From Azolla caroliniana (taxonomy: Eukaryota > Plantae > Polypodiophyta): a DNA stretch of 64,000 bases. Of this stretch, positions 16,813 through 56,300 are shown piece after piece (within the stretch, counting starts at the first letter, position 1; every line of letters starts with the position of its first letter). Position numbers and translations under genes: made by a program. The stretch is taken from contig JBHGNT010000020.1 in NCBI GenBank assembly GCA_043228905.1, forward strand, positions 10,230,001 through 10,294,000, written 5' to 3'. Under the pieces are notes generated by a model. That model worked only from the letters and a program-made list of their open reading frames with translations. It ran no database searches and was not told the origin of the DNA.

Positions 16813-18410
16813 AACGCGATGACGTTTCAAGAATAGTGTTGAAACATGTTTCTGATGTAACTTTGTCCTCAGAACTCCGTTTTTATGATTTTTGGCTCAT
16901 TGCGAAGCTTGTTCAGAGGGCTTTCCAAGGATTATTTGGACATTACGTTTCATTATCGTTACAAGAGGCTACAAGCAAAAGTGTCATCGTCTCAGGTTAG
17001 TTCTCTTAATCTCTATTAGGATGGTTGACACAACAACAGGAAGTGAGTTGATGATTGTTGATGGATGTGGTAGTGATGATGGTTATGAAAATTACAAGAG
17101 GCAAAAGTGTATTGATTCTACAAAACATGAGAAAACATCATATGTTGCTATTCTTGGTGAGAAAGATGCTAGAGATTGTGTGGAGGAGGATGTTGTCGAG
17201 GTGGTGATGGAAACCAACTCTATGTTAGCAACTTTTGATAGGTTCTATGATCGTGGTGTTATTTTGTATTTCACTAGCAAACTTCCTTTGGTATCATGGA
17301 TTAAGCAGTGGTTGAATTCATTCATAATGTCTAATTGTGTTGAGGATGTGTATGTGGGTCCAAGAGGTTTTTATGATGTAGTTTTTCGATCGTCAGAACA
17401 CCGTACAACTTTGATGGCAAAGGTACCAATCTTTTTTTATAGAAGATTAGTGCATGTGATGGAATGGGATCCAATGGTGGATTATAAAGATTTTAAAACA
17501 ACAATGTCCAATTTGGGTGACCGTTGATTGTAGTAACTCATTCTTTTGAGATTTACTACCAGGATTGATGTCCCAAATTGGTAAAGTTTTGGTTGCTCCT
17601 CATGTTAATTCGTTGAACAAATGTAGATTTTGCATGTTATGGATACAAGTTGTAAACTTTCAGGATGTTTGAGTATCGATACATCTTGATTTGGTCGATT
17701 TCGTTTTAAGCTTCAATGGGAAACTTTTGCAAGACATTGTTTTAAATGTGGTAAATTGGGGCATTTAATGGCTGAATGCCAATATCATGGTGAACTATCC
17801 CCAAAAAATAATGTCAAAGGGAAAAATAAGGAAGATGTTGAGAAGGATATTGTCTCAATGGTTGATATGGTCATGGATGAGGGAACATCTCATGGGTTAG
17901 AGCGAGATCCTAAAGATCATGGTCATGCTAGAGGTGTTGGGGAGGAGAATGGAGTATGTAATAATGATGGCCCAAATGTTGAAGATGGAGAGTGGCATCA
18001 AGTGAAGAATAAGATAAAAGGAAGGGTGTTGTCATACAAAGGGAAACAAAAAAAACTTATGGTACGACATTACCAAAAGATAATTTGAGATTGAAGGAGG
18101 GGTTTAAGAAAAATCCTTGGCAGAAACAAGTGCGAAATCAGAGATTGTCCAACAATTTACAATTTGATTCTTCGAGAAGGGTGGTACGACCTCAATTAAA
18201 TCACGAACTTCGTTCTCATAGAGCTAGACAACAAAACCCTAATATTGGTGGAGGGGATGTAGTACACACAAATCCTTATGCAGCTCTTGAACAAGTAGTT
18301 AGTACATTCATGAATACACTTGCTCATAAAGAGCAAGTTCTTACCAAAGGTGTTAAATGAAAGTGGTATCATGGAATGCGAAAGGGGGCATCTTCTCCTC
18401 ATAAGACTTT
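16812..18410 (+). mobile_element. L1-type LINE 5' part: 5' UTR plus degenerate ORF1 (DUF4283-like domain and CCHC knuckle)
   Basis: VYVGPRGFYDVVF...LVHVMEWDP and CFKCGKLGHLMAEC (~17738-17780); frameshifted; starts right after the (GT)n(GA)n tract. Confidence 0.8.
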
Positions 18411-18447: not shown

Positions 18448-18593
18448 TAGTGGTAAGTTGTTAACACTACAAGCACTGCATCATGGGTTTGAAACCCAAT
18501 CTCCTCACCTCTCTATTATATAGTGGTAAGTTGTTAACACTACAAGCATTGCATCGTGGGCTCGAAACCCAATCTCCTCACCTCTCTATTATA
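18448..18593 (+). repeat. 73-bp tandem dimer with pol III A/B-box-like motifs (tRNA/SINE-like)
   Basis: tagtggtaag...ggg(t/c)t(t/c)gaaaccc...tctcctcacctctctattata, starting at 18448 and 18521. Confidence 0.55.
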
Positions 18594-18619
18594 TAGTTCA
18601 TATTCTCTTAATTCACTAG

Positions 18620-18698
18620 ATGCCACTGTGGAATGTTGGGGTTGAACCCATGATCACCTGGTCTCCATTGGGCAACCTTACCAACTGAGCTCATAAGA

Positions 18699-18700
<2 letters not shown>
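18620..18700 (-). mobile_element. tRNA-derived SINE-like head
   Basis: Minus strand reads gagctcagttggtaagg (A box) ... gggttcaacccc (B box); it does not fold into a full cloverleaf. Confidence 0.4.
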
Positions 18701-18730
<30 letters not shown>

Positions 18731-19174
18731 CTCCCTTCTCCCTTCCCCCTCCCCTATACCTCTCACTACCTTTTTATACACTCTCTCTCTTCCCTCGTTT
18801 CCCTCGAACCTTCTCCCCACCACCTCTTACTAACTTCCTTTTTCTTTCCCTTCCTTTCCCTTCCTTTATTTTCACCTTCTCACCATCTTATGTTTACTTA
18901 CTTATAATTACATACCCTATCACTCATTCATTTCCCCTTATCACCCTATCCCACTCACTCATCTGTCTTATCACCCTATCAATCTTCCTATCACCAACTC
19001 ATTTTCCCCTTTATCACCACCTCCCCTATCATCAAGATCTTCCACCTTAAATCCTTATAGCCTTCCATCTATTTACACTCTTATTACACCCCACTCACTA
19101 TGATTATACTTTCCCTCTTTCTCCTCCCTTCCCCATTCTCAACATCCTATATAAACTACCTTTTGTATTTCCAT

Positions 19175-19229
19175 GACCTTTTGCACTAATGAGCTCTAAG
19201 CGAGTGAAACTAGTTTGCTGCATAAGGTC
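19175..19229 (+). ncRNA. Degenerate minimal type I hammerhead ribozyme (Penelope-like element type)
   Basis: GACCUU-UUGCA [CUaAUGA] GCUC-UAAGC-GAGu [GAAA] C-UA-G[UU] UGC-UGCAU-AAGGUC. Stem I is GCA/UGC plus GACCUU/AAGGUC, stem II is GCUC/GAGU, and stem III is the palindrome AACUAGUU. The core has two transitions from consensus. Confidence 0.65.
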
Positions 19230-19385
19230 TTTCCTTTCATTTTAATGAAAATTTCTTGAGTCTCTCTCTCTCTCTCTCACCTCTATGCTTAGAATCTCTT
19301 TTTTTTCTATTACATTATCTACCATATCACAAAGTCGCCCGCACTCCTTGCTACAACCGAACGGTTAATAACAAAAGAGGGAGGT

Positions 19386-19419
<34 letters not shown>

Positions 19420-19421
<2 letters not shown>

Positions 19422-19571
19422 GTCCAAACCGGTGTATAAGCCGTTTACCAAACCGGTTTAGGGATCGGTTTGGTTCAAGTTTGAGAACCCCTAAACCGGT
19501 TTAAGCTTAACCAGTTTGGCTTGGATCAGGCTAAACCGGCTAAGCCTAAACCAAACCGTTGTCGATTCCTA
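19420..19571. mobile_element. Truncated hAT-MITE end (same kind as 63394-63614)
   Basis: aaaccgg/aaccg motifs ending in accgttgtcgattccta (right TIR); the left TIR is missing, with (GA)n in its place. Confidence 0.6.
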
Positions 19572-19599
19572 CTAACTAGACTAAGTTGAGCTTGATCTC

Positions 19600-23570: not shown

Positions 23571-24652
23571 GTTATATAAAAGAAGTCATTCTTGACTTCA
23601 TTTGTAAGTGTGTGAATCAAACTCTAGATTGATCTTATAAAGTTTTACCAAAAAACAACGATTCTCGACTTAAATCGAAGTGGCTTCATAGGCTCATGTA
23701 ATCTATTTGAACCTTTCATTGTGGTCATAATCTTCATCTTTCCCCAAGCTTGCTTATCTAGGAACTTGCCTATGTCATTTACATTGGTATGGAATGTCTG
23801 CACCTCCATTGTCTCTTGACTTTGTATGGACTAGAAAGCAACACCTATATCGACGTTTGAGCCTAATGGCCATATATGTTGAACAACCAATAGTATGTTA
23901 TTCATCCTCAACTACAACTACCCTTTGCTTTCCATAGAAAACATGGCCACCTTTACATTAAATGAAACCTATGTTAAGTTCATAACTTGAACAAAACACC
24001 TTTTCCCTTGCATATTTTAACCCCTTGTGAAAGCCTCCACATCATGTGAACATTTTTCACTCTATGACTATTGAACTTGGAGCATCCACATCTATCATGG
24101 ACTAAAGTGAAATTAACATCTTTAAAGCATTCTCGGAAAGTGATTAATCGAGTCATTTGGGCCCCTTGTTTTATCAACTTTGTAAGTCCTTCAACACGAA
24201 CAAGAACTATGTTTAACAAAGCCCCTTCCATAAATGTCTGAATTCTTTCATTTGACAAAAATAAATAAATCAAACTCACTTTTTGATGAGAAAGATCACC
24301 TACAACAAGAGTTTCCTGGGCAAAAAAAGACATAATAATCATGACAATATTAGTAAACCGGATGCCCATAAGAAGAATAATTTGTTGCTAAATGCACAAA
24401 CTGTATAATGAATTAGAATTTTCAATTCCTGAGTCAGATAAATGCATATATATTACCATAATTTATAGAACAGAAACTGCTTTCTGTTTATCCATTGTGT
24501 TAAAAAATCAATACAAGACTGCTGTTGGCTGGGGCAAGCCAAGCCATGGCAAAAATCTCCAATACAAACTCTTACATGTGAGCACAACACACTTTCATGC
24601 CTGGATTTAAATAGATTTACAACATGCTTTCACATCCAAAATGAGTTATTCA

Positions 24653-27600
24653 TTACCCACGGATCTTCATTTTGAGTGGTTTCGCAAGGTCTTTACACAC
24701 CTTTTCGAGCATATTCAAGAAGTCCCTAACTATCATAAACAACCTTAGGGGTTGTGTCTCTCTTGCATTCCCATGGAAGTACGATGTTGCTTTCTTCACC
24801 TTATCAAGGACTTTTTCTAAATCTTCTTTTGCTTTTGCCACATCAGCTTCTGCCTGGGAACAGAAAATTTCCATGTTGGAAGAGAAAATATCTTCGGTTG
24901 TGAAAATACCTGTGGTCTGTGCTTTCACTTGAAAACTCGTTTTCAACCTATTCTCAATAGATTGCAACCCATTTGTTAGCTTCAACACAGCTTGAGTCAG
25001 TGCATCAGCATCCACTCCTGCTGCTTTCCTCACACTTTCTAGCTCTGAACATAATTCTATAACTATCTCTAATCCTTTACGCTTCACATCAGTCTCAAAT
25101 TTCTGTCCTTGTGGCCCAGATGATGATGATGATGACGATCCTTGCCCATCATTTGGTTGCAAAGCTTTAAGACCTTCAGACTTTATTATTTCTTCAGTCA
25201 CGAAATGGAGAAGAGTTGTTTTCCCATCAGCACTCTTCACGTCAGATAATTTTAGCAATGCATCTAGTTTGAATGCATCCGCTTCGCCACGGTTTGTTCC
25301 CTTATTCATACGGTTTCCTGTCTTCAAGACTGCTTCCAATAGCTTCAAGAAAAGCCGACTCTCTTTTACTTGCACACATGCAGCCTGTATTCTCACAGCA
25401 GTTGGGTTCTTAAACAGCACTAAGATACAAATTCACAAAAGTAAACATAATACACAAGACAAGGCAACCATTCTTCTTATGTTGATGTTAAAATTATTAT
25501 AATCACGATTCATCTCGTAGGCCGATTTTGGCCTCTGGTAGATGCTAGCCTCTCAACGCAAATTCCAGCCATTCCTAACACAGATCAAAAGATGCCAAGA
25601 GACTTTTACCGGTAGAGTCATCCCCGAGAGTGTGTCAACTTTGGCCTACCCAATATTTCTTGAGAGCTAATGCTCCATCTTAGTAACAAATGACACAAAC
25701 ATCTCCCCTCTACCCATCAGAACCCAAGACAAACATTCCAGAAGATAGGGCCACTAGACTATCAGGGTAGCAGACATCATCATGATTACATTGTCCAAAA
25801 TTCAAGGCATCCACAACAGGAATGATAGAGCATTCAGGAGAGACAACTCATGTAAAACCTCATCCAGAACTGCTTTTCCGAAAATCAGTCTACTCCAGTG
25901 AGCACATTTTTTCTATTACTATGACATATCATCCTATCAGGATACACAGTTTTAAATCTCATATATACTCCAACGCCCACATTGTTTCCACAATTATGAC
26001 ATATTACTTACTATCATGATCAACAGTTTTACTCAACAACTGTACTATGTTTTGTTGGCCTTGGCAGATGTTATTAAAGATCTCCCTGAGGCCATTGTTT
26101 ATTATTAACCCAGACATCTGTTTCAAATCTCACTTCCATGATTTCTTTACTAGAAGACCTTGTTGAATGATGGACACATGATCAACTGAGCCACTGGTTC
26201 AGACCTCATTCTCCCTTTTATGGCAACTATGCACTTGTGACTGATGCTAACATGTTACTGTAGTGGGCAAGAAACACTTTTTATGGCAACTATGCACATG
26301 TGACTGATGCTAACATTTTGTTGTAGGAGGTAAAATCTCAATATTATATTGGCACTTTACTGTAGAAGTTTCATATGCCAATGATACTAACACTTTATTG
26401 TAGAAGATATGCCTCATGCTTCCTTTTTGAAATAGGACAAGTTATTACTAGATGATATTGCTAATTCAGTTATAAATGAACGAGGATAAAGAATCACACC
26501 TCCAAAGTTTGTAATGTTTCTTGAACTTGAACCAAATCATCCTTGAAACAAGCCTTGTATTGCATAGCTTGCAGGCGTTGGAACGCATTTGGTATATCTA
26601 GAACCAACTTGAGAAATCTCTCTGATGGGTCCAACTCTGACTTATCGCCAGAATATTCAAGCAACGCCTTTTGTTCTTCTTGTGTTGGGGTCATCTTCAC
26701 CAAGATATCCAACAACTCTGCCTTCAGGCCATCACCTGCAAAAGATGACATCTAAATAAATGTGTCATAAAAGAAGCATAGCAAAACTTCTGAGAATCAT
26801 AGACTGAAAAAACTATATTAGAAACTCTTTATGGTATGGATTATACTTTGAATCTACAGTAGCAATTTATGAGCAGGTGTTTCTCGACAATTCTCCAAAG
26901 ATATCAAAATTGATTAAGACTCTTGGATATGGTCCCAAAAAGAATCTAGTTAAATTTGACAGAGTTTAGGGTTTCGGGTTTAGCAAACCTAGCATAAGTC
27001 CATGGGCACTAAAACATTTCACAAACAGATGATTTCATATCTTCTAGATAATTCAAACATACTTGACCCGCATCAGACTTCCTAATATGGAATACCCATT
27101 TGCAGCGGCTTAATAATACTCTCCATCCAACATCAACTATGATTTGATAATTCTATCATATATTCTGGATATTCTGGCAAAATCTACTACCTAAGATCAA
27201 TTTCTGAAGCACTTTAGTAGAAGTTAGCCATGTACCTTCAAGCAAAGCATCACAAATATCTTGCGTAGCAATATTGAGCGCCCGCAACTGGATTGCAATA
27301 TTCTGGGCTTTCTTGGGATCCAGAATTCCTCTCTTTTTCGGTGGTGCATGTGCAGATCTGTTAAACTCCTTTGCAGGATTCACATTTGTGCCAAATAGAG
27401 TTGCTATTTCGTCCTCATTCAACCTACACAGAACAGACAAGAAACAACATTTTCAACAGGGCAAGCATTATCAAGGATAAGAACCAAAGCTAAACTACAA
27501 GATACATCAGTCAAAATATTTATATACTCACACAAAAGAACCAGCCTTAAGCCTATCCCAAACCATGGATTGTGACGGGTCAGCTCGAACTTTATCCCAA

Positions 27601-29867
27601 TGCAATGGTTTTAACTTTTGTGGATTTTCTAACTCCTGCATTGTGGGTGGTTTGGGTAAAGGACGACCCTTCTGGGAAGGTGGTGGTGGTGGCAAAGAAG
27701 CATTTGACTTGGGAGGCAGAGGTGGTGGAGGGGGACCCTTTGCATTAGGAAGGGGAGGTGGTGGTGGAGGAGGACCCTTTGCGTTAGGAGGAGGAGGTGG
27801 TGGTGGTCCCTTTGTATTAGGTGGTGGTGGTGGTGGTGGAGGAGGAACCTTTGCATTAGGAGGAGGAGGCGGTGGTGTCGGAGGACCCTTTGCATTAGGA
27901 GGTGGCGGTGGTGGTGGTGGTGGTGGTGGTGGTGGACCCTTTGCATTAAGTGGCAGTGGTGGTGGTGGTGGAGGCGATGGGGCCTTTGCATTAGGAGGAA
28001 CATTTGCATTAACTGGGTTCGTTGGTGGTGGTGATTTTGCATTAATCGATGATGGTGGAGGTGGAGTATTAACATTTGACATCGGCAGTAAAGGTGTAGG
28101 TTGTAGTGTAGATAACGTGTTGGATAGTTTGTAGGCTGATGATATCAATGATGAGTCATTTATAGGTTCCTTGATAGGAGGAAGCGACATATGACCACTA
28201 TCGAATGCGACAACTACCTCCTTCACAGGCACTGTAGACTGGACATCAGAGACAAACACATGTGTGTCAGTTTGATAGCCTTGCTCTGCATACGAGGCTG
28301 CCACTAACTTCACAGGTACAGAAGATGAAACCTCTCCTACGTTAGAACTAGATAGCCCTACTTCTGAAGTTTGTTGCCCGAATGAAGCAGCTACTGACTT
28401 GACAGGTATAGAAGATGAAATCTCTTCTCCATGAGAGCTAGATGGCATTGTTTCTGAAGGTCGGCTGGAAAATGCTGCAGCATATGACTTCACTGGAATA
28501 GAAGAATGGATCTTTTGATTTTCTTCTAAGTTAGAGGTCATTACTTCTGAGGATTGATTAGAAAACGCCGCTGCATATGACTTTACAGGAACAGAGGAAT
28601 GGATTTCATTGACAATTGAAGTAGGTTTCTGATGTTGTGCTTTGAGAATATTTGCAGAAACAAGCGCAGGAGGTAGTGGAAGTGCAGGTACAAATTGTGG
28701 AATGAACTTAAATGGCACAGACTGAGTTGGGTTTAATTTCTTTGGTTCCAAGTTTTGCTGAGAGATGAATGCATCATTGATCATCTCATTCACTAGATTT
28801 GGGTTTGATTTCTGTGATGTTGCACTTTGCTCTGGCATGAATGTGTCAGTGATCATACCATTCACTACATTTGCATTGGATTTCTGCTGTGTCTGCCTTT
28901 GCTCCGGCATGAATGAGTCAATGACAGTATCATTCATGGAGCTTCGGTTTGGTTTCTTTAGTGCCTGCCTTTGCTCTGGCATGAATGAATTTGTGGTCAT
29001 ATCATTCGCCAGATTTGGGTTTGATTTCCTTGTTTCCCACATTTGTTCTGGCATGTATGTGTCAGTAATCATATCATGTGCAAGTGGGTCTCGTTTTCCT
29101 CCATGAGATATCGGAGAAGACAACATTGGTCCAAAAGCCTCTGCCAAGGATTGTGCAGCATTGATAGAAGGTGAATGTGAAAGTGGTGGTGGTTCATAAA
29201 TGTCAAGACATTGTTCTACCATTTCATGATCCACAGCTGGCAGTGGCCCAAAAGATTCAGCCAATATTTTTGCTGCATTGATAGAGTTCTGATGTGAAAA
29301 TTTACCAGGCTTTATCGATGACGATGGTTTTCCCTGTGGCATTTCGGTGGAGACCAATACATTATTCTTACCGTTAAATGGATGTTCCATCGTTGAATCC
29401 ACAACATCATTATGTACTTTTCGCCCCTCCTCAGATGGTTTGAACCCATTTAAAGGTTGGGCACCTTGAAATGGTATAGATGATGAAACTGGTGGAGTCC
29501 TCACTGCTGGCCTTTTTACATTTTCCAAAGAAGATGATAGTGGTGGAGTTTTGAAACCTGTTGGACGATCCATTCGTGTCAGTTCTACATCAGTTTCTGG
29601 TATCTTATTATGCTGTCCTTTGACTTTGTATAAAGGGTCATTCACACCTGCAAGAGAGTTAGTATTTCTCCTCTCCTTGTTCGCTGCAGCCACTGTTGCA
29701 GCATTATGCTTGAATGGTGGGCTCTCCACTTTAAAAGCCTCTTGCCATTGTAAAGATTGGCTATCTTTCGCACTTGGATTGAGCAGTTGAGAACCATGAG
29801 AAGCATGAGAAGCATTTGGATTTGGTTTCTTATTCTGATTCTTGGACTTCCTGAAAAGGAAGCACAT
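24653..29867 (-). CDS. Formin (FH1 plus class I-type FH2), ~1163 aa; exons 29867-27532, 27423-27236, 26735-26500, 25384-24653
   Basis: Polyproline FH1; [12 protein letters not shown]...[11 protein letters not shown]; [14 protein letters not shown]; [36 protein letters not shown]; [12 protein letters not shown]. Splice phases are consistent. The start codon is inferred. Confidence 0.92.
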
Positions 29868-31912
29868 ACTTGCTTCCAATTACAAACACTAACAACTTGT
29901 TCAGGTTAGTGTTTGTTATTTGATGAATTTGTTTTGGTTATGTTTCTGTTATTCGACGAGTTCAGGGTCTAACATGAAGATGGAGAATTGGTGAGTTGAT
30001 CTGTGAATGGATCGACCAAAGCATATATCCCTTGATGAGGAACAAACCGAAACATTAGCTCTGATGACTGACCAACATCATTCAGAGTTGGGCAATAACT
30101 GCATGCAATGTACTCTTGATGAGAATCTCATTTAAGCCAAGAAACAAGGAAGAATAACTGCATGCAAATGAACAGAGTAGAGGAAAATGTTTAAATTGAA
30201 GGCCGGAATGCTAATAAAGAAGCAAATAAACAAAGAGGGGAAATCGTGAAAGAGAAAGGAATAGAAAACGAGATGAGCATCAAATGTGATACTTGCAACT
30301 TAACAAACAAGATGAGAAACTGTTCGCTACAACGATTGAAAGAGGAGTTTGACCAAGAAAATATGCTACTTGTTATTTAACTGAGAAAATGACTAAAGAA
30401 GTCTGCCCAGAAGAGACGTAAACAAACAATGACCTGAAACTTTGGACAAGAACTAGGTTTTTCTGCAACTGAGCAGAGAATATGAAAATGGTGACACAAT
30501 AAACAATGAAAGAGAGTGGGTTTTTGGCAGTTGAACATAGACAAGAGAAGGTTTACGATTTCAATGGAGACGAGCAAAAAACAAACAAACAAAAAATGAA
30601 AGAAAGAAACCTTTAAGCCTCAACTATCCTGCTAGCAATTCAATTGGGAAGATGAAAAAGAAGAAGAGCAGTAAACAAACAAACAATGAAAGAAATAAAA
30701 CATTGAATTCCAGTAGACTGCTAGTAATTCACTGGACCAGATGAAAAGACAGAAGATCAATAAACAGCCACTAATGCAAGAAAGCACGACATACCCAATA
30801 ATACAATTGAAATGACGAAAAAATGTCACAATTTCAGCCAAGACGAACGAAAAACAAACACTAAAGTAAAACCTCAAGCATCAATTATGGTGATTACATG
30901 ATCAATTGAACAGAAACAATGGAAAAATGCCCTAACCATGCACGAATGAAGAGTAAAACACACAAAAACAAATAAGAGAGAGAAGAAAAGGAATAATCTA
31001 TCTGCTCTGCGAGACAATGTATTAAGTTTTCGTTTGCTGATAAGCAGGAGACCATGAGCTGGGAAAAAAGCAAAGAGAAAAGAGAAGGATGGAGATGGAG
31101 ATTACATTCCAAAGCTACAAATTGCAACTTTTCCACAGCTGGGTTCAAAACAATGAAATAGGACATCAAAACATAAATAATCCACCGTTACGGAGATGAA
31201 CACATGAGGAAAAAACGGAGACAAACGAGACCTTTAGAAATTTCATCCATTCAGAAAGGTACAAAAACATACTGTTCAATGAACATATAAAGATGGAGAT
31301 ATGCCCAAGAAGGTATATATATAAAAGGAATTATCTTTCGAGAAACAGAAAAGGAGTTGATTCAAGACGAAAAAAGAAGGATTTAAATCAGATAAGAAAA
31401 AAGAAGGATTTAAATCTTACGATAACTTCTGATCAGAAAACAGAAGGGTAAATCAATCTCAGAACACAGCCGAAGAAGTATTTGAAGCTAAAAGACTTTC
31501 TGACCAGACCCGAAGACAGAAGTGATCGGTTTTTTATCCATTCTTTTCTTCCTCCCTTCTTTACTTCTTTCCTTATTCCACTTTTTCTTTCTTTCTTAAG
31601 ACTGAGCTTTGGAGCACAAGATATGGAGATCGATCCAAGAATAGACCGAAGTATCGAGAGAAGGAATATTAGGAGGATTTGCAGCTAAAAAAGGGACTTC
31701 CGATCAGAGAAAAAAGAAGACGAAATCAATTAAGTCAAGCATTTTCGTCTGTAATCCATCCTTGCTTCCTTTTCTTTAGTTCGTGTGAGGTCTATGAATG
31801 GAAAGGATTCCTGCACAGAGATATGGGGATTAGGTCCTTACCTGTGAGAAGCAGGAGTTCCCCGCTGACGCAATTGGAGCTTCTGTGCGATCGCAGCGAT
31901 GGCTTTCTTTCT

Positions 31913-53361: not shown

Positions 53362-56300
53362 TCATCTGGTAAATTTCGTGATCATCCCTTGTATCCCACA
53401 CTTCAAACTGTCGATAACTGAATTATTATATACCGATGGTTTATAGCAAAAGCCCAATGTGCCTGCTTGCTGAAATAGTTCTGATGCTTTTTGATATTGC
53501 CTTTTGCCAATAAACGCAGAAAGCACAGAGATAAATGTCTTCTCAGGCGGTATGTGGCCTTTTTCCATCATTTGTGAACAAAGAAAGCTTGCAGTGGTTA
53601 TAGAACCTGCATGCACAAAAGAAGAAGAAGAAGAAGAAGAAGAGAGGCTTAAGTTCATACAAACTTCAAAATAACTTGTTTGTAAAACACTTCATAACAA
53701 GATTAACAAGTTAACCAATCAAACGCTACTCATTTCCAATGCACTTCATGATGAGCTTAACAAGTTGAGCAATCAAACATTTCCATTACCCTTTTTAACA
53801 CACTTGACAATAAGGTTGTTATAGCTTTCAAGGTCGCATTGCATTAAGCATTGGGATAGAGATGCCACATCCTCTGTTCTACCAAAGGAATCGTATATGT
53901 TGAGCATCACAACCATCGCTGTAGCATCCGGACGATTCAAACCATTATACAATAATTCTGCCTCAGAAAACCTCCCTTCTTTTCCATAAGCCTGGATTAG
54001 CATTGTTTTGATATACGTAGTTGGGGTCAATCCCGAATCATTTTGCATCTTGGTATAATAGAGTTCAGCTTGTGGAATCATGCCAAGGCTACAAAAAAGG
54101 TCAATAATTGCACCATAAAGCTTCTCATCAGGTCTCAAACCATCAGATTCCAAAACTGATAGCAATGCTTTACTACCTTCAATGATGGATAGCTTCTTAT
54201 ACAAACTGAACATGCATGTGTATGCAGCTGTATCTGCAAACCCTTTCGCGTGCATCACTTGGAAGACCGACTCAGCATGAGATAGTTTTTGTTGCTTCAC
54301 ACAACATTGTAACACAATAATCCAGGCATATCTTGACATGGTAAAGCCCCGAGATTTCATCTCATCAAACAGCTCTAACACTTGAGCATAACTACATGCT
54401 TTCATCCTTACAGTTGCCATTATGATAAACACTCTATCAGTGACCACAAGCCCAGCTTCATCCATCTCTTTAAAAGCACGTTCGGCATCTTCATAGAGAC
54501 CCAACTGGCCATAAATAGAAATTATCGTACCATAGATCACTTCATCCATCAGACATCCCTGTCTTTGCATTTCAGAGAAAAACCTCATTGCTAGCTCGTA
54601 ATTTCTAGCTTTGCAAAAGAAGTGAACCAAATATGTATATGTATATTTACCTATGATCAAGCCTTGCATCTTCATCTTTTCATATGTATCTAGCATCAAA
54701 TCCTGTCTTCCTAATTTTCCCATCATAGTGATCACCATGTTGTAGAGAATCCCATCAGGGAGATGGCCGAACGACATCATCTCTTCAAAGACATGGATGG
54801 CCTCTTCAAACTTGTTCATCTTTCGATAAACATTGATCACCACCCCATAAGTGTAATCATTCGCTTTCGCTTTCGAGTCACGAAGGTCGTTCCAAACATC
54901 AATCGCCTTTATGTAAAGGCCTTTCTTGTACAAGGAAGAAAGCATGAAATTATATACCACAATGGGTGGGATGAGTCCTTGCATCCTCATCATCTCGTAA
55001 AACTCCAGCATAAAAGTTATGTGGCCTGATTTTCCAAATATACAGATCAAGCTACATATTACAACTTCATCCGGTTCACAACCTACACCCAACATCTCTT
55101 TATAAAGGCTTTGAACAATATCAAATTGTTTCTCTCGTCCGCATATCCTCAATAGGATTGTGTAAGGAATGACACTCGGCACATAACGACCCTGCACATT
55201 AATGTATAAGCTTGTTTTTTTCAAACATTCTGTTATGTATGGAAAAAAATAAACTTTTTGAAACCACTAAACAATCAGAAGCAAAATATCCCCATTCTTA
55301 GTTTTCCTATGTAGAAAGTCAATCTAAACAAAAAGAATAAATGATCCTTACCAAGGAAAACAATCAAGTTTTATGAATTCTGGGTCAAACAGAGGACTTG
55401 GAAGTTAGGGCAGCAGAAGGTTGTAATGTAAATTACATTTAAGTTGACCAAAAGATGGTATGCTGTCTAAGAAAAATCGAGTTTCATAAAGATCATAAAC
55501 AGTGCTCCTTCATAGAAAGTTCTTGAAGCTTCCATCAAAAGAGAAAAGAGAGCTTTAAGTATATATCATTTTTCCCGTTTGCACTTGACCTTGGGTTTCG
55601 TTCATTGAGTTCCAATCCTTGCGTCGTGACTCTCGACAGTAATTCAAATTAGATGTATACACATGCACAACCATTGTCATTTCCCTCTGAAAAGATTTTC
55701 GCAGTTCAATAGATTGATTCAGACTAATTGTCCGGCATAACAAGACATTACGTGCTAAAGCATTGCCTTTACTACATCACCACATAAGAGACGTTAGAAG
55801 TATTACCAATTATTAGTCATAGATTCACAAGCTTACATTTTCGAACTTTCTAAAGTTGAAGCAGTAAGTCTCGTGACTAATGGAAGGTTGTGAATTTGAA
55901 TCTCGAGCAATAGGTTTGATGTTACCCTAATCTTTTTAAAACCCTTCATAAGTTTAAGTTTGAAATCATGCATAATCACAGGTTTCCACAAAATAAGTGA
56001 TAGCATTGTCCTTAAAGAAGGGAGACTTCCAACCACCTATCTATAGCTAGCTGGATCTATCCAGTTAGACATAACCAGAAAGAAAAACATGAGCACGCAA
56101 TACAGATATTAACTGGCATAGATTCCACTTTCATTTAGCCAAAGGAAAAAAAAAAACTGAACAAGTGGAACTAATTAACTAATATACTTTCTACTTATAA
56201 CTTATAGAACAAAATAGAACTTATAATTACCTATTTATAGCTAGATCTAGCCCCAACTAGCAATAACCAGAAAAAAACCTAACCAATAGGTAAGAAGATT

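What the first reader, a model, noticed from the sequence alone, without database searches (positions are those of the whole stretch)
18728..19260. Minimal type I hammerhead ribozyme in a ~530-bp non-coding unit between (CT)n tracts: candidate Penelope-like or retrozyme element
Seen: GACCUU-UUGCA-CUAAUGAG-CUC-UAAGC-GAGU-GAAACUAGUU-UGCUGCAU-AAGGUC at 19175-19229 places all hammerhead elements in type I topology. Stem I is bipartite, stem II is short, and stem III is reduced to a palindrome. A TATA-like tatataaa lies ~27 nt upstream, an AATGAAA follows, and the pyrimidine-rich unit is bracketed by (CT)n at ~18700-18727 and 19261-19278. Established: minimal type I hammerheads with a palindromic stem III are characteristic of Penelope-like element repeats, whereas described angiosperm retrozymes carry type III. 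Inference: this is a decayed copy of a ribozyme-bearing, possibly microsatellite-targeting retroelement family. The two core changes (CUGAUGA to CUAAUGA, CGAAA to UGAAA) are transitions and probably inactivate this copy.
Basis: partly seen in the sequence, partly recalled or inferred. Interest (0 to 1): 0.8.

Follow-up and report, generated by a model that had tools for sequence, protein, structure and literature searches.

The report
Endonuclease-less Penelope element patching chromosome interiors
This self-cutting RNA motif is the damaged tail end of a plant jumping gene that encodes no recognisable DNA-cutting enzyme yet lies scattered along all chromosomes, likely by copying itself into existing DNA breaks; several sister copies begin at the motif's predicted cut site, so the ribozyme likely does cut in the living plant.

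Summary
The hammerhead is real (19175-19229). It lies in the 3' end (about 18700-19376) of a 5'-truncated Penelope-like element. Sister copies mostly keep the intact core (26-27 of 30); this copy carries G5A and is likely dead. Full-length relatives are 4.7-6.1-kb units: a helical ORF1, a likely -1 frameshift, and a telomerase-like RT with no GIY-YIG endonuclease, in a land-plant clade with Selaginella and gymnosperms (Coprina-like). It is not a retrozyme and not microsatellite-targeted: the downstream (CT)n is internal, and 1 of 50 3' junctions abuts a microsatellite. Three features differ from textbook endonuclease-less elements. (1) 84 of 96 RT copies lie over 1 Mb from chromosome ends. (2) 12 of 46 insertions carry 0.1-3-kb target duplications, others small deletions, which points to priming at host DNA breaks. 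(3) 4 of 6 5' ends caught by a pattern screen, plus 2 found separately, fall at the predicted cleavage site, genomic evidence of cleavage in vivo. Copying starts just 3' of a conserved small hairpin. This scan noted the family before on other DNA of this genome and read it as telomere-attached, which my test does not support.

The parts
18700..19376 (+). 5'-truncated copy of an endonuclease-less Penelope-like element: most of the 3' UTR / pseudo-LTR, no coding sequence
   Evidence: 94-95% identical to copies that continue upstream into the RT ORF; 5' boundary; common 3' end
18700..18727 (+). (CT)14 at the 5' truncation point; other copies have (CT)n here inside the 3' UTR, so it is element sequence or a microhomology join with a flanking tract
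19148..19155 (+). TATA box, likely the element's promoter; 27-28 nt before stem I across subfamilies, so transcription likely starts at about the first base of the hammerhead
   Evidence: 66 of 68 counted motifs, duplicates included; one copy begins at that base (L219)
19175..19229 (+). type I hammerhead; predicted cleavage between 19215 and 19216 (GUU triplet); G5A at 19188 likely inactivates this copy; C11.1U at 19205 leaves a G-U pair
   Evidence: contigs of run X4 read G at 19188 and C at 19205 in 3 of 3
19207..19216 (+). 10-nt palindrome forming stem III; predicted to pair with a second hammerhead (duplex -8.4 kcal/mol)
   Evidence: palindromic in 9 of 9 subfamily representatives, loop UA or AU
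19261..19278 (+). internal (CT)n of the 5' UTR / R-like region; not a target site
   Evidence: the same ~100 bp follow it in other copies
19340..19366 (+). conserved 11-nt motif (19340-19350) plus 4-bp hairpin (19355-19366); likely RT landing and start signal
   Evidence: motif invariant and 24 of 24 stem cells paired in 6 subfamily representatives, 2 of 4 pairs compensatory, 7 of 500 shuffles as high; no folding-energy support
19367..19376 (+). 3' end of the copy, about 10 nt after the hairpin and about 20 nt before the ORF1 start codon of tandem copies
   Evidence: 43 of 50 junctions end 5-20 nt after the hairpin
19377..19575 (+). 3' flank: an unrelated high-copy repeat that brings its own (GA)n; not part of the element
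   Evidence: 1651 candidates, 40 scored

Best explanation
The stretch is the 5'-truncated 3' end of a two-ORF Penelope-like retroelement with no recognisable endonuclease, which likely spreads through chromosome interiors by priming reverse transcription on DNA ends that the host has already broken. Shown by sequence: unit = ORF1 (helical, Pro/Asn-rich), overlap with slippery heptamer and stem, telomerase-like RT, 3' UTR, TATA, hammerhead, 5' UTR, hairpin; fixed 3' ends, variable 5' ends, tandem arrays. Inferred steps: (1) Pol II starts about 27 nt after the TATA, at the first base of the hammerhead. (2) ORF1-RT is made by -1 frameshift. (3) Two hammerheads, at both ends of a pLTR-ORF-pLTR or tandem transcript, pair through the palindrome and cleave some transcripts. 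(4) The RT binds the conserved motif and hairpin and starts cDNA 5-20 nt 3' of it on a free genomic 3'-OH, helped by a few bases of microhomology. (5) cDNA runs off at the cut site, at the transcript start, or falls off earlier. (6) Host repair joins the other end; staggered breaks or fork restart give 0.1-3-kb duplications, near-blunt breaks give small deletions. The window copy is one such product, 5-6% diverged from its closest relatives, with a likely dead ribozyme.
For: RT motifs and tandem units. RVT_1 only in Pfam. Best fold match is TERT. RT ORFs stop just after the thumb/linker in all subfamilies fetched. The only GIY-YIG hit in G000 looks like a host SLX1-type gene, and a PLE endonuclease query found nothing. 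Tree: host RTs nest (SH-aLRT 100) with Selaginella, Ginkgo, Cryptomeria and a Picea-containing cluster, inside a clade (99) without GIY-YIG-annotated members. 84 of 96 non-redundant RT hits lie >1 Mb from contig ends; 1 of 8 telomere-bearing ends has a copy, in the polarity opposite to telomere priming. 12 of 46 insertions have long duplications; empty paralogous sites confirm 7 duplications and show 4 near-blunt joins or small deletions. A head-to-head pair of two subfamilies with six telomeric repeats between and a 42-bp duplication outside. 5' ends at the cut site (controls 84, 85).
Against: No biochemical or transcript evidence; runs were contigs only. 34 of 46 insertions, including the window copy, show no long duplication of their own, and for most the empty site is unresolved. 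Copies are modestly enriched near ends (4 within 100 kb against 0.9 expected; 11 within 500 kb against 4.4), 30 of 129 RT hits are on unplaced contigs, 8 of 50 junctions lie in a satellite that is common at chromosome ends, and 34 of 42 ends examined lack telomere arrays. Subfamilies A and B carry telomere-like repeats in the pLTR. The cut-site counts are small, 2 of 6 screened ends lie 8 nt further on, and whole-window enrichment over the controls is only P=0.056. ORF1 has no confident model or family, so a hidden nuclease is not excluded. In an animal PLE the hammerhead was dispensable in vitro (PMC11167929).
Confidence: 0.72

Rival explanations
1. Classical telomere-attached Coprina element: copies are primed on telomeric G-overhangs, and interior copies are relics of chromosome rearrangement or misplacement.
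For: Clade membership with Selaginella. Telomere-like C-rich repeats in the pLTR of subfamilies A and B. Modest end enrichment and many copies on unplaced satellite-rich contigs. Most ends are unassembled.
Against: Only 1 of 50 3' junctions is followed by C-rich telomeric repeats, two units only; one other is G-rich. No copy in the expected polarity at 8 telomere-bearing ends. Young copies sit inside Copia/Gypsy sequences with reconstructable empty sites. The window's subfamily lacks those repeats.
Confidence: 0.1
2. Copies are inserted at nicks made by another nuclease acting in trans (a LINE APE or RLE endonuclease, an undetected GIY-YIG PLE, or a cryptic ORF1 activity). The long duplications would then be staggered cuts, as proposed for Dualen.
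For: Long duplications are known for a nuclease-bearing LINE (PMC9977147, passages). LINE-like RT ORFs are present in the genome. ORF1 is uncharacterised. Family searches in G000 score only the best candidates.
Against: No target motif evident among 50 junctions. Outcomes range from deletions of up to 17 bp to 3-kb duplications, with telomeric and 5S-like filler at 5' joins. No PLE endonuclease found. The ORF1 model is all-helical, though of low confidence.
Confidence: 0.13
3. The hammerhead is a passenger: templates are uncleaved, and 5' ends near the cut site come from RT stalling or strand switching at stem I or the palindrome.
For: Most copies that contain the ORF1 start keep an intact upstream hammerhead and promoter. 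Two D copies end inside the distal helix. Hammerhead mutants still inserted in vitro, and no RNA-seq ends were seen at the cut site, in an anole PLE (PMC11167929).
Against: Three copies start exactly at or one base after the first nucleotide of the 3' product, a fourth within its microhomology, and two further cases were found independently. A helix stall would be expected at the 3' foot of stem I, about 12-14 nt further on (inference). The core is conserved across 9 subfamilies whose flanks have diverged.
Confidence: 0.25
4. Non-autonomous retrozyme or microsatellite-targeting short element of 530 bp.
For: The window copy has no ORF and has (CT)n at both sides.
Against: It is collinear with the 3' end of RT-bearing copies; 5' ends vary continuously; no short tandem monomers or LTR pair; 1 of 50 junctions at a microsatellite.
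Confidence: 0.02

Closest known systems
EN-minus PLEs of the Coprina clade, including Selaginella moellendorffii Sm1/Sm2 (described in PMC4209133, PMC8557442, PMC13159263)
   Same: No endonuclease; DKN motif; no IFD; no CxC; coiled-coil-like ORF1 with frameshift; type I hammerhead in the pLTR; tandem arrays; occasional telomeric repeats at 5' ends; RT groups with a Selaginella protein at 37% identity.
   Different: Dispersed in chromosome interiors; 3' ends not on telomeric repeats; long target duplications; stem III is a 2-bp palindrome, whereas the Selaginella ribozymes are described as having a typical helix III.
EN-less PLE-X families of Chara and Selaginella (Chlamys clade; PMC8557442 section 9)
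   Same: No endonuclease, hammerhead present, genome-wide in Chara by an unexplained route.
   Different: PLE-X have the CxC motif and belong to the IFD-bearing Chlamys; this RT has neither (motif A-B' spacing 58).
Poseidon PAc of Anolis (PMC11167929)
   Same: Reverse transcription starts inside the RNA at a stem-loop, which fixes the 3' ends of genomic copies; hammerhead upstream of it.
   Different: PAc has a C-terminal GIY-YIG endonuclease and one ORF; no RNA-seq ends at its cut site were found, whereas here several genomic 5' ends lie there.
Dualen-4b LINE of Chlamydomonas (PMC9977147) and rotifer R9 (cited there)
   Same: Unusually long, variable target duplications (median 900 bp for Dualen; 126 bp for R9).
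   Different: There ascribed to element-encoded endonucleases; here none is encoded.
Retrozymes (plant LTR type with type III hammerhead; animal non-LTR type with type I; 10.64898/2026.07.22.740005)
   Same: Type I hammerhead with palindromic stem III, as in the animal kind.
   Different: Retrozymes are non-coding; this is the truncated end of a coding element.

Membership tests
Type I hammerhead ribozyme | core CUGANGA ... GAAAN ... NUH with three stems in type I order | tested here: met
   family copies; the window copy itself has G5A
Type I hammerhead ribozyme | compensatory change in stems | tested here: met
   distal stem I 6-8 bp in 9 of 9 representatives, swapping GACC/GGUC, GGUC/GACC and GGCC/GGCC; cross-type pairing 2-5 bp; stem II invariant
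Type I hammerhead ribozyme | match to an Rfam hammerhead model | tested here: not met
Type I hammerhead ribozyme | self-cleavage | not testable with these tools
   indirect only: genomic 5' ends at the predicted site
Penelope-like elements | telomerase-like RT with DK(G/N), motif B' MG, YIDD and thumb RGY | tested here: met
Penelope-like elements | pLTR / tandem or partial tandem arrangement, 5' truncation, inverted 5' pieces | tested here: met
EN+ PLE (Penelope/Poseidon, Neptune, Nematis, Hydra, Dryad) | C-terminal GIY-YIG domain | tested here: not met
Naiad/Chlamys/PLE-X | CxC motif, IFD, N-terminal GIY-YIG | tested here: not met
Coprina (EN-minus PLE) | no endonuclease, DKN motif, optional coiled-coil ORF1 with frameshift | tested here: met
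Coprina (EN-minus PLE) | RT groups with named Coprina references (Sm1, Sm2, Cc1) | tested here: inconclusive
   groups with a Selaginella RT (P0153) that is not labelled Sm1/Sm2; no labelled Coprina sequence was available; quick tree, SH-aLRT only
Coprina (EN-minus PLE) | attachment to telomeric repeats at chromosome ends | tested here: not met
   caveat: 34 of 42 ends examined lack telomere arrays
Retrozyme | non-coding, LTR-flanked or short tandem units | tested here: not met
Microsatellite-targeting PLE | 3' junction inside a microsatellite | tested here: not met
   1 of 50

The most novel reading that the evidence does not exclude
A land-plant lineage of endonuclease-less, telomerase-like retroelements has left the telomere and acts as a genome-wide break-patching RT: it primes on host breaks or stalled forks, competes with telomerase for the same ends, leaves duplications of up to 3 kb, and uses templates whose 5' end is cut by a dimer-dependent hammerhead. 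The genomic copies would be a fossil record showing that a PLE hammerhead cleaves in vivo.
Probability: 0.5. Interest if true: 0.78.

Novelty: new variant of a known kind. Interest (0 to 1): 0.6.

Why it matters
Two points are stated as open in papers read here: how endonuclease-less PLEs can spread through a genome (PMC8557442) and whether PLE hammerheads do anything in vivo (PMC4209133, PMC8557442, PMC11167929). This family has intact, identical young copies on different chromosomes, at least nine subfamilies for comparison, a compact RT with a defined RNA start signal, and junctions that record both the priming event and the RNA 5' end. That makes both questions directly testable. It also suggests a route to kilobase tandem duplications in plant genomes and a living model for the step between telomerase and mobile RTs. 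The window copy itself is an ordinary dead fragment.

Tried and rejected
Rfam gave no hammerhead match. Expression: no RNA holder listed, and the five runs laid were contigs, so nothing can be said about transcription or RNA ends. No empty site for the window copy was found, in runs or among 19 paralogues of its 3' flank, and no duplication within about 10 kb on either side. ORF1 homology: no hit in the protein search, Atlas scores at most 0.82, low-confidence model, so no fold search was run on it. The 3' hairpin has no folding-energy support (z about 0 to +0.7; the fifth sequence in that call had wrong coordinates and is ignored). I considered whether the 3' motif is an HDV-like ribozyme and rejected it by eye, as the flanking P3 pairing is missing (recalled consensus). 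AATGAAA as a poly(A) signal: rejected, the element continues 125 nt and has no poly(A) tail. Duplications dropped before counting: L072, L081, L087 (satellite), L062, L018, L080, L097, L079, L110 (match not anchored at both junctions), and L055-57, L060 (5' boundary unresolved). [quoted passage not shown] 2017 and Lin et al. 2016 were not held; they are known here only through citing papers and may already report interior copies, long duplications or conifer EN-minus elements. No supplement was read; those of PMC8557442 hold reference PLE sequences that bear on Coprina membership.

Full report
Observation. The sequence at 19175-19229 has the described layout: stem I in two parts (3 bp next to the core, 6 bp distal), a 4-bp stem II, and a 2-bp stem III inside a perfect 10-nt palindrome. 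Alone it is unremarkable (z -1.89; no Rfam hammerhead hit). The family settles it. A DNA search of the own genome G000 (523 Mb, 22 large contigs) gave 132 candidates, 40 scored. Among the 30 loci fetched, 26 have CTGATGA, 27 GAAAC and 26 the stem II closing C (some loci are duplicates). The window copy differs at 19188 (G5A, known as an inactivating change; recalled) and 19205 (G-C to G-U). Both are the transitions expected from methylated cytosines (inference).

What the unit is. It extends past the second (CT)n to about 19376, and in other copies it continues upstream into an RT ORF. Complete units lie in head-to-tail arrays of 4.7-6.1 kb: ORF1 of about 750-880 aa (helical N-terminal part, then Pro/Asn-rich repeats), overlapped in the -1 frame by an RT ORF of about 660-680 codons. 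At the overlap, five subfamilies share an A-AAA-AAC heptamer followed by a stem (z -3.5 for one), a likely frameshift signal. The RT matches RVT_1 only, and its model (pLDDT 87.6) matches TERT best. The ORF stops about 95 residues after the thumb motif, where endonuclease-bearing relatives have about 250. A GIY-YIG family search of G000 gave one hit that reads like a host SLX1-type gene (name recalled), and a PLE endonuclease query gave none (no positive control genome). An RT query gave 455 candidates, 129 scored, in several subfamilies at 59-100% identity, some with identical core proteins on different chromosomes, which implies recent activity.

Relationship. Named relatives are Cryptomeria (38-42%), Ginkgo, Selaginella moellendorffii (37%), a cluster containing a Picea protein, and Closterium. 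In a quick ML tree of 67 chosen proteins, the host-type RTs form a clade inside a group with those land plants (SH-aLRT 100), sister to Closterium (95), within a clade (99) that holds none of the 14 GIY-YIG-annotated rows. DKN motif, no IFD and no CxC fit Coprina and exclude Chlamys/PLE-X as defined in PMC8557442 (passages and section 9 read). No labelled Coprina reference was available, so membership is likely, not proven. The host is a land plant (TTTAGGG telomeres; PPR genes with E motif), likely a fern (earlier notes of this scan; not established here).

The ribozyme across subfamilies. Every subfamily fetched has TATA, then 27-28 nt, then the hammerhead. In nine representatives the core is kept (position 7 U or A), distal stem I swaps sequence while staying paired, stem II is invariant with loops of 3-9 nt, and the stem III palindrome persists with loop UA or AU. 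This fits the dimer model of PMC4209133 (parts 1-2 of 4 read): predicted palindrome duplex about -8.4 kcal/mol, while the open junction costs 1.6-12.4 kcal/mol against the monomer minimum.

Where copying starts. All subfamilies end just after a conserved 11-nt motif and a 4-bp hairpin. In six representatives all 24 stem cells pair, two pairs change on both sides, and 7 of 500 shuffles score as high; the hairpin has no energy support. 43 of 50 junctions end 5-20 nt after it, about 20 nt before the ORF1 start, with no poly(A). Where the target is known, the overlap with the element RNA was 1-6 nt in the 7 junctions scored cleanly out of 12 shown. This parallels internal initiation at a stem-loop shown for an anole PLE (PMC11167929, parts 1-2 of 4 read). 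One junction of 50 abuts a microsatellite, the window's own, and that (GA)n belongs to a separate repeat.

Where it inserts. Of 129 RT hits, 30 are on unplaced contigs and 3 were dropped as tandem repeats of one locus. Of the remaining 96, 4 are within 100 kb of a contig end (0.9 expected), 11 within 500 kb (4.4) and 12 within 1 Mb (8.8). Of 42 ends read over 10 kb, 8 carry telomere arrays; one has a copy, broken in ORF1 and capped in the polarity opposite to overhang priming. So there is mild end enrichment, but the bulk is interior. PMC8557442 describes EN-minus PLEs as generally restricted to termini, with the Chara PLE-X as an unexplained exception in another clade.

Insertion scars. Of 46 insertions with both boundaries placed, 12 have a direct duplication that starts at the 3' junction: 112, 119, 122, 125, 286, 349, 389, 484, 818 and 982 bp and two of about 3 kb, at 93-100% identity (control 1 of 220 mismatched pairs; no N near the junctions). 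Paralogous empty sites in other repeats confirm seven as true duplications and show four insertions with near-blunt joins or deletions of up to 17 bp. One 5' join has 22 nt of G-rich telomeric repeat on the flank strand, another a 211-nt filler with a 5S-like piece. On C3, two subfamilies lie head to head around six telomeric repeats, inside a 42-bp perfect duplication: both ends of one break appear to have been primed. Long duplications are known for the Dualen LINE and ascribed to its two endonucleases (PMC9977147, passages). With no endonuclease here, and outcomes from small deletion to 3-kb duplication, host-made breaks are the simplest source (inference). The window copy shows no duplication.

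Evidence of cleavage in vivo. Four pattern searches asked for the sequence 3' of the hammerhead with a non-matching base two positions before the cut, which catches 5' ends in windows of 17-21 nt. Of 17 hits, 8 are an internal duplication of subfamily F (judged from the matched letters), 3 are intact ribozymes with point changes, and 6 are true 5' ends. Two start exactly at the first base after GUU (L205, L214), one at the next base (L203), one within a 3-nt microhomology spanning the site (L202), and two 8 nt further on (L207, L208); P=0.007 for 4 of 6 in 3 of 19 positions. Two more were seen independently: a full-length D copy starting 1-4 nt after the site (L066) and an inverted F piece ending at it (L186). 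Control windows of 109 nt upstream gave one end, at the first base of stem I, the predicted transcription start. Against: numbers are small, whole-window enrichment is only P=0.056, other 5' ends lie elsewhere in the 5' UTR, and most copies with an ORF1 start keep an intact upstream hammerhead and promoter, so uncleaved, tandem or circular templates are also used. PMC11167929 found no RNA-seq ends at the cut site of its element.

Literature coverage. Ten searches listed no paper, by title or abstract opening, that describes PLEs in ferns, long duplications made by an endonuclease-less PLE, or genomic 5' ends at a PLE hammerhead cut site. Also read as passages: PMC13159263, PMC6431247, PMC12477314, 10.64898/2026.07.22.740005. 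Three key papers were not held and no supplements were read, so these points may be in print. Earlier notes of this scan describe the same family elsewhere in this genome, after I had reached my reading.

Verdict. Observation confirmed. The PLE reading is right; the retrozyme, microsatellite and GIY-YIG ideas are not. Known kind (Coprina-like EN-minus PLE with type I hammerhead), new variant in its interior spread, insertion scars and cut-site 5' ends. Interest 0.6.

Noticed in passing
L046 / L064 (G000:C3, about 1.691-1.699 Mb): Two different PLE subfamilies head to head, six telomeric repeats between, 42-bp perfect duplication outside: both ends of one break primed.
   Followed up: partly
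L095 1-3715 (left end of C7): Telomere array joined directly to the middle of ORF1 of a tandem copy, in the polarity of de novo healing of a break.
   Followed up: partly
L082 3165-3257, minus strand: 5S rRNA-like piece (E 4e-06, below gathering score) in a 211-nt filler at a PLE 5' junction; similar sequence precedes L205. Could be a captured RNA or a 5S-bearing repeat.
   Followed up: partly
L032 4050-4110 and equivalents in four other subfamilies: Conserved slippery heptamer plus long stem at the ORF1/RT overlap, a likely -1 frameshift signal; pseudoknot not tested.
   Followed up: partly
L032 1277-1415; L051-L061 pLTR; ORF1 PN repeats: Telomere-like C-rich repeats in the pLTR of subfamilies A and B and in ORF1; subfamily B copies often sit in a satellite of about 180 bp that is common at chromosome ends.
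   Followed up: partly
L176, just upstream of ORF1: Copy in which the whole hammerhead core and stem II are replaced by three bases while stem I strands remain.
   Followed up: no
P0019, P0024, P0027, P0156, P0122, P0029, P0030: EN-less PLE RTs in Cryptomeria, Ginkgo, Picea (there labelled as a mitochondrial gene) and Closterium (ORF1-like part fused to RT), annotated as uncharacterised proteins.
   Followed up: partly
window 18448-18700: 73-bp tandem pair and a high-copy short repeat (tRNA-like by eye) directly 5' of the PLE fragment.
   Followed up: no
window 19377-19575: Separate high-copy repeat with (GA)n and AAACCGGTTT-type palindromic units (1651 candidates).
   Followed up: partly
window 24000-29900, 39339-41858, 46475-47479, 53773-55266 (all minus): Host genes: formin (FH2, Pro-rich), two PPR proteins with weak E-motif hits, Endonuclease V. 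Also a decayed L1-like ORF1 (DUF4283 weak, zf-CCHC) at 16889-18088.
   Followed up: no
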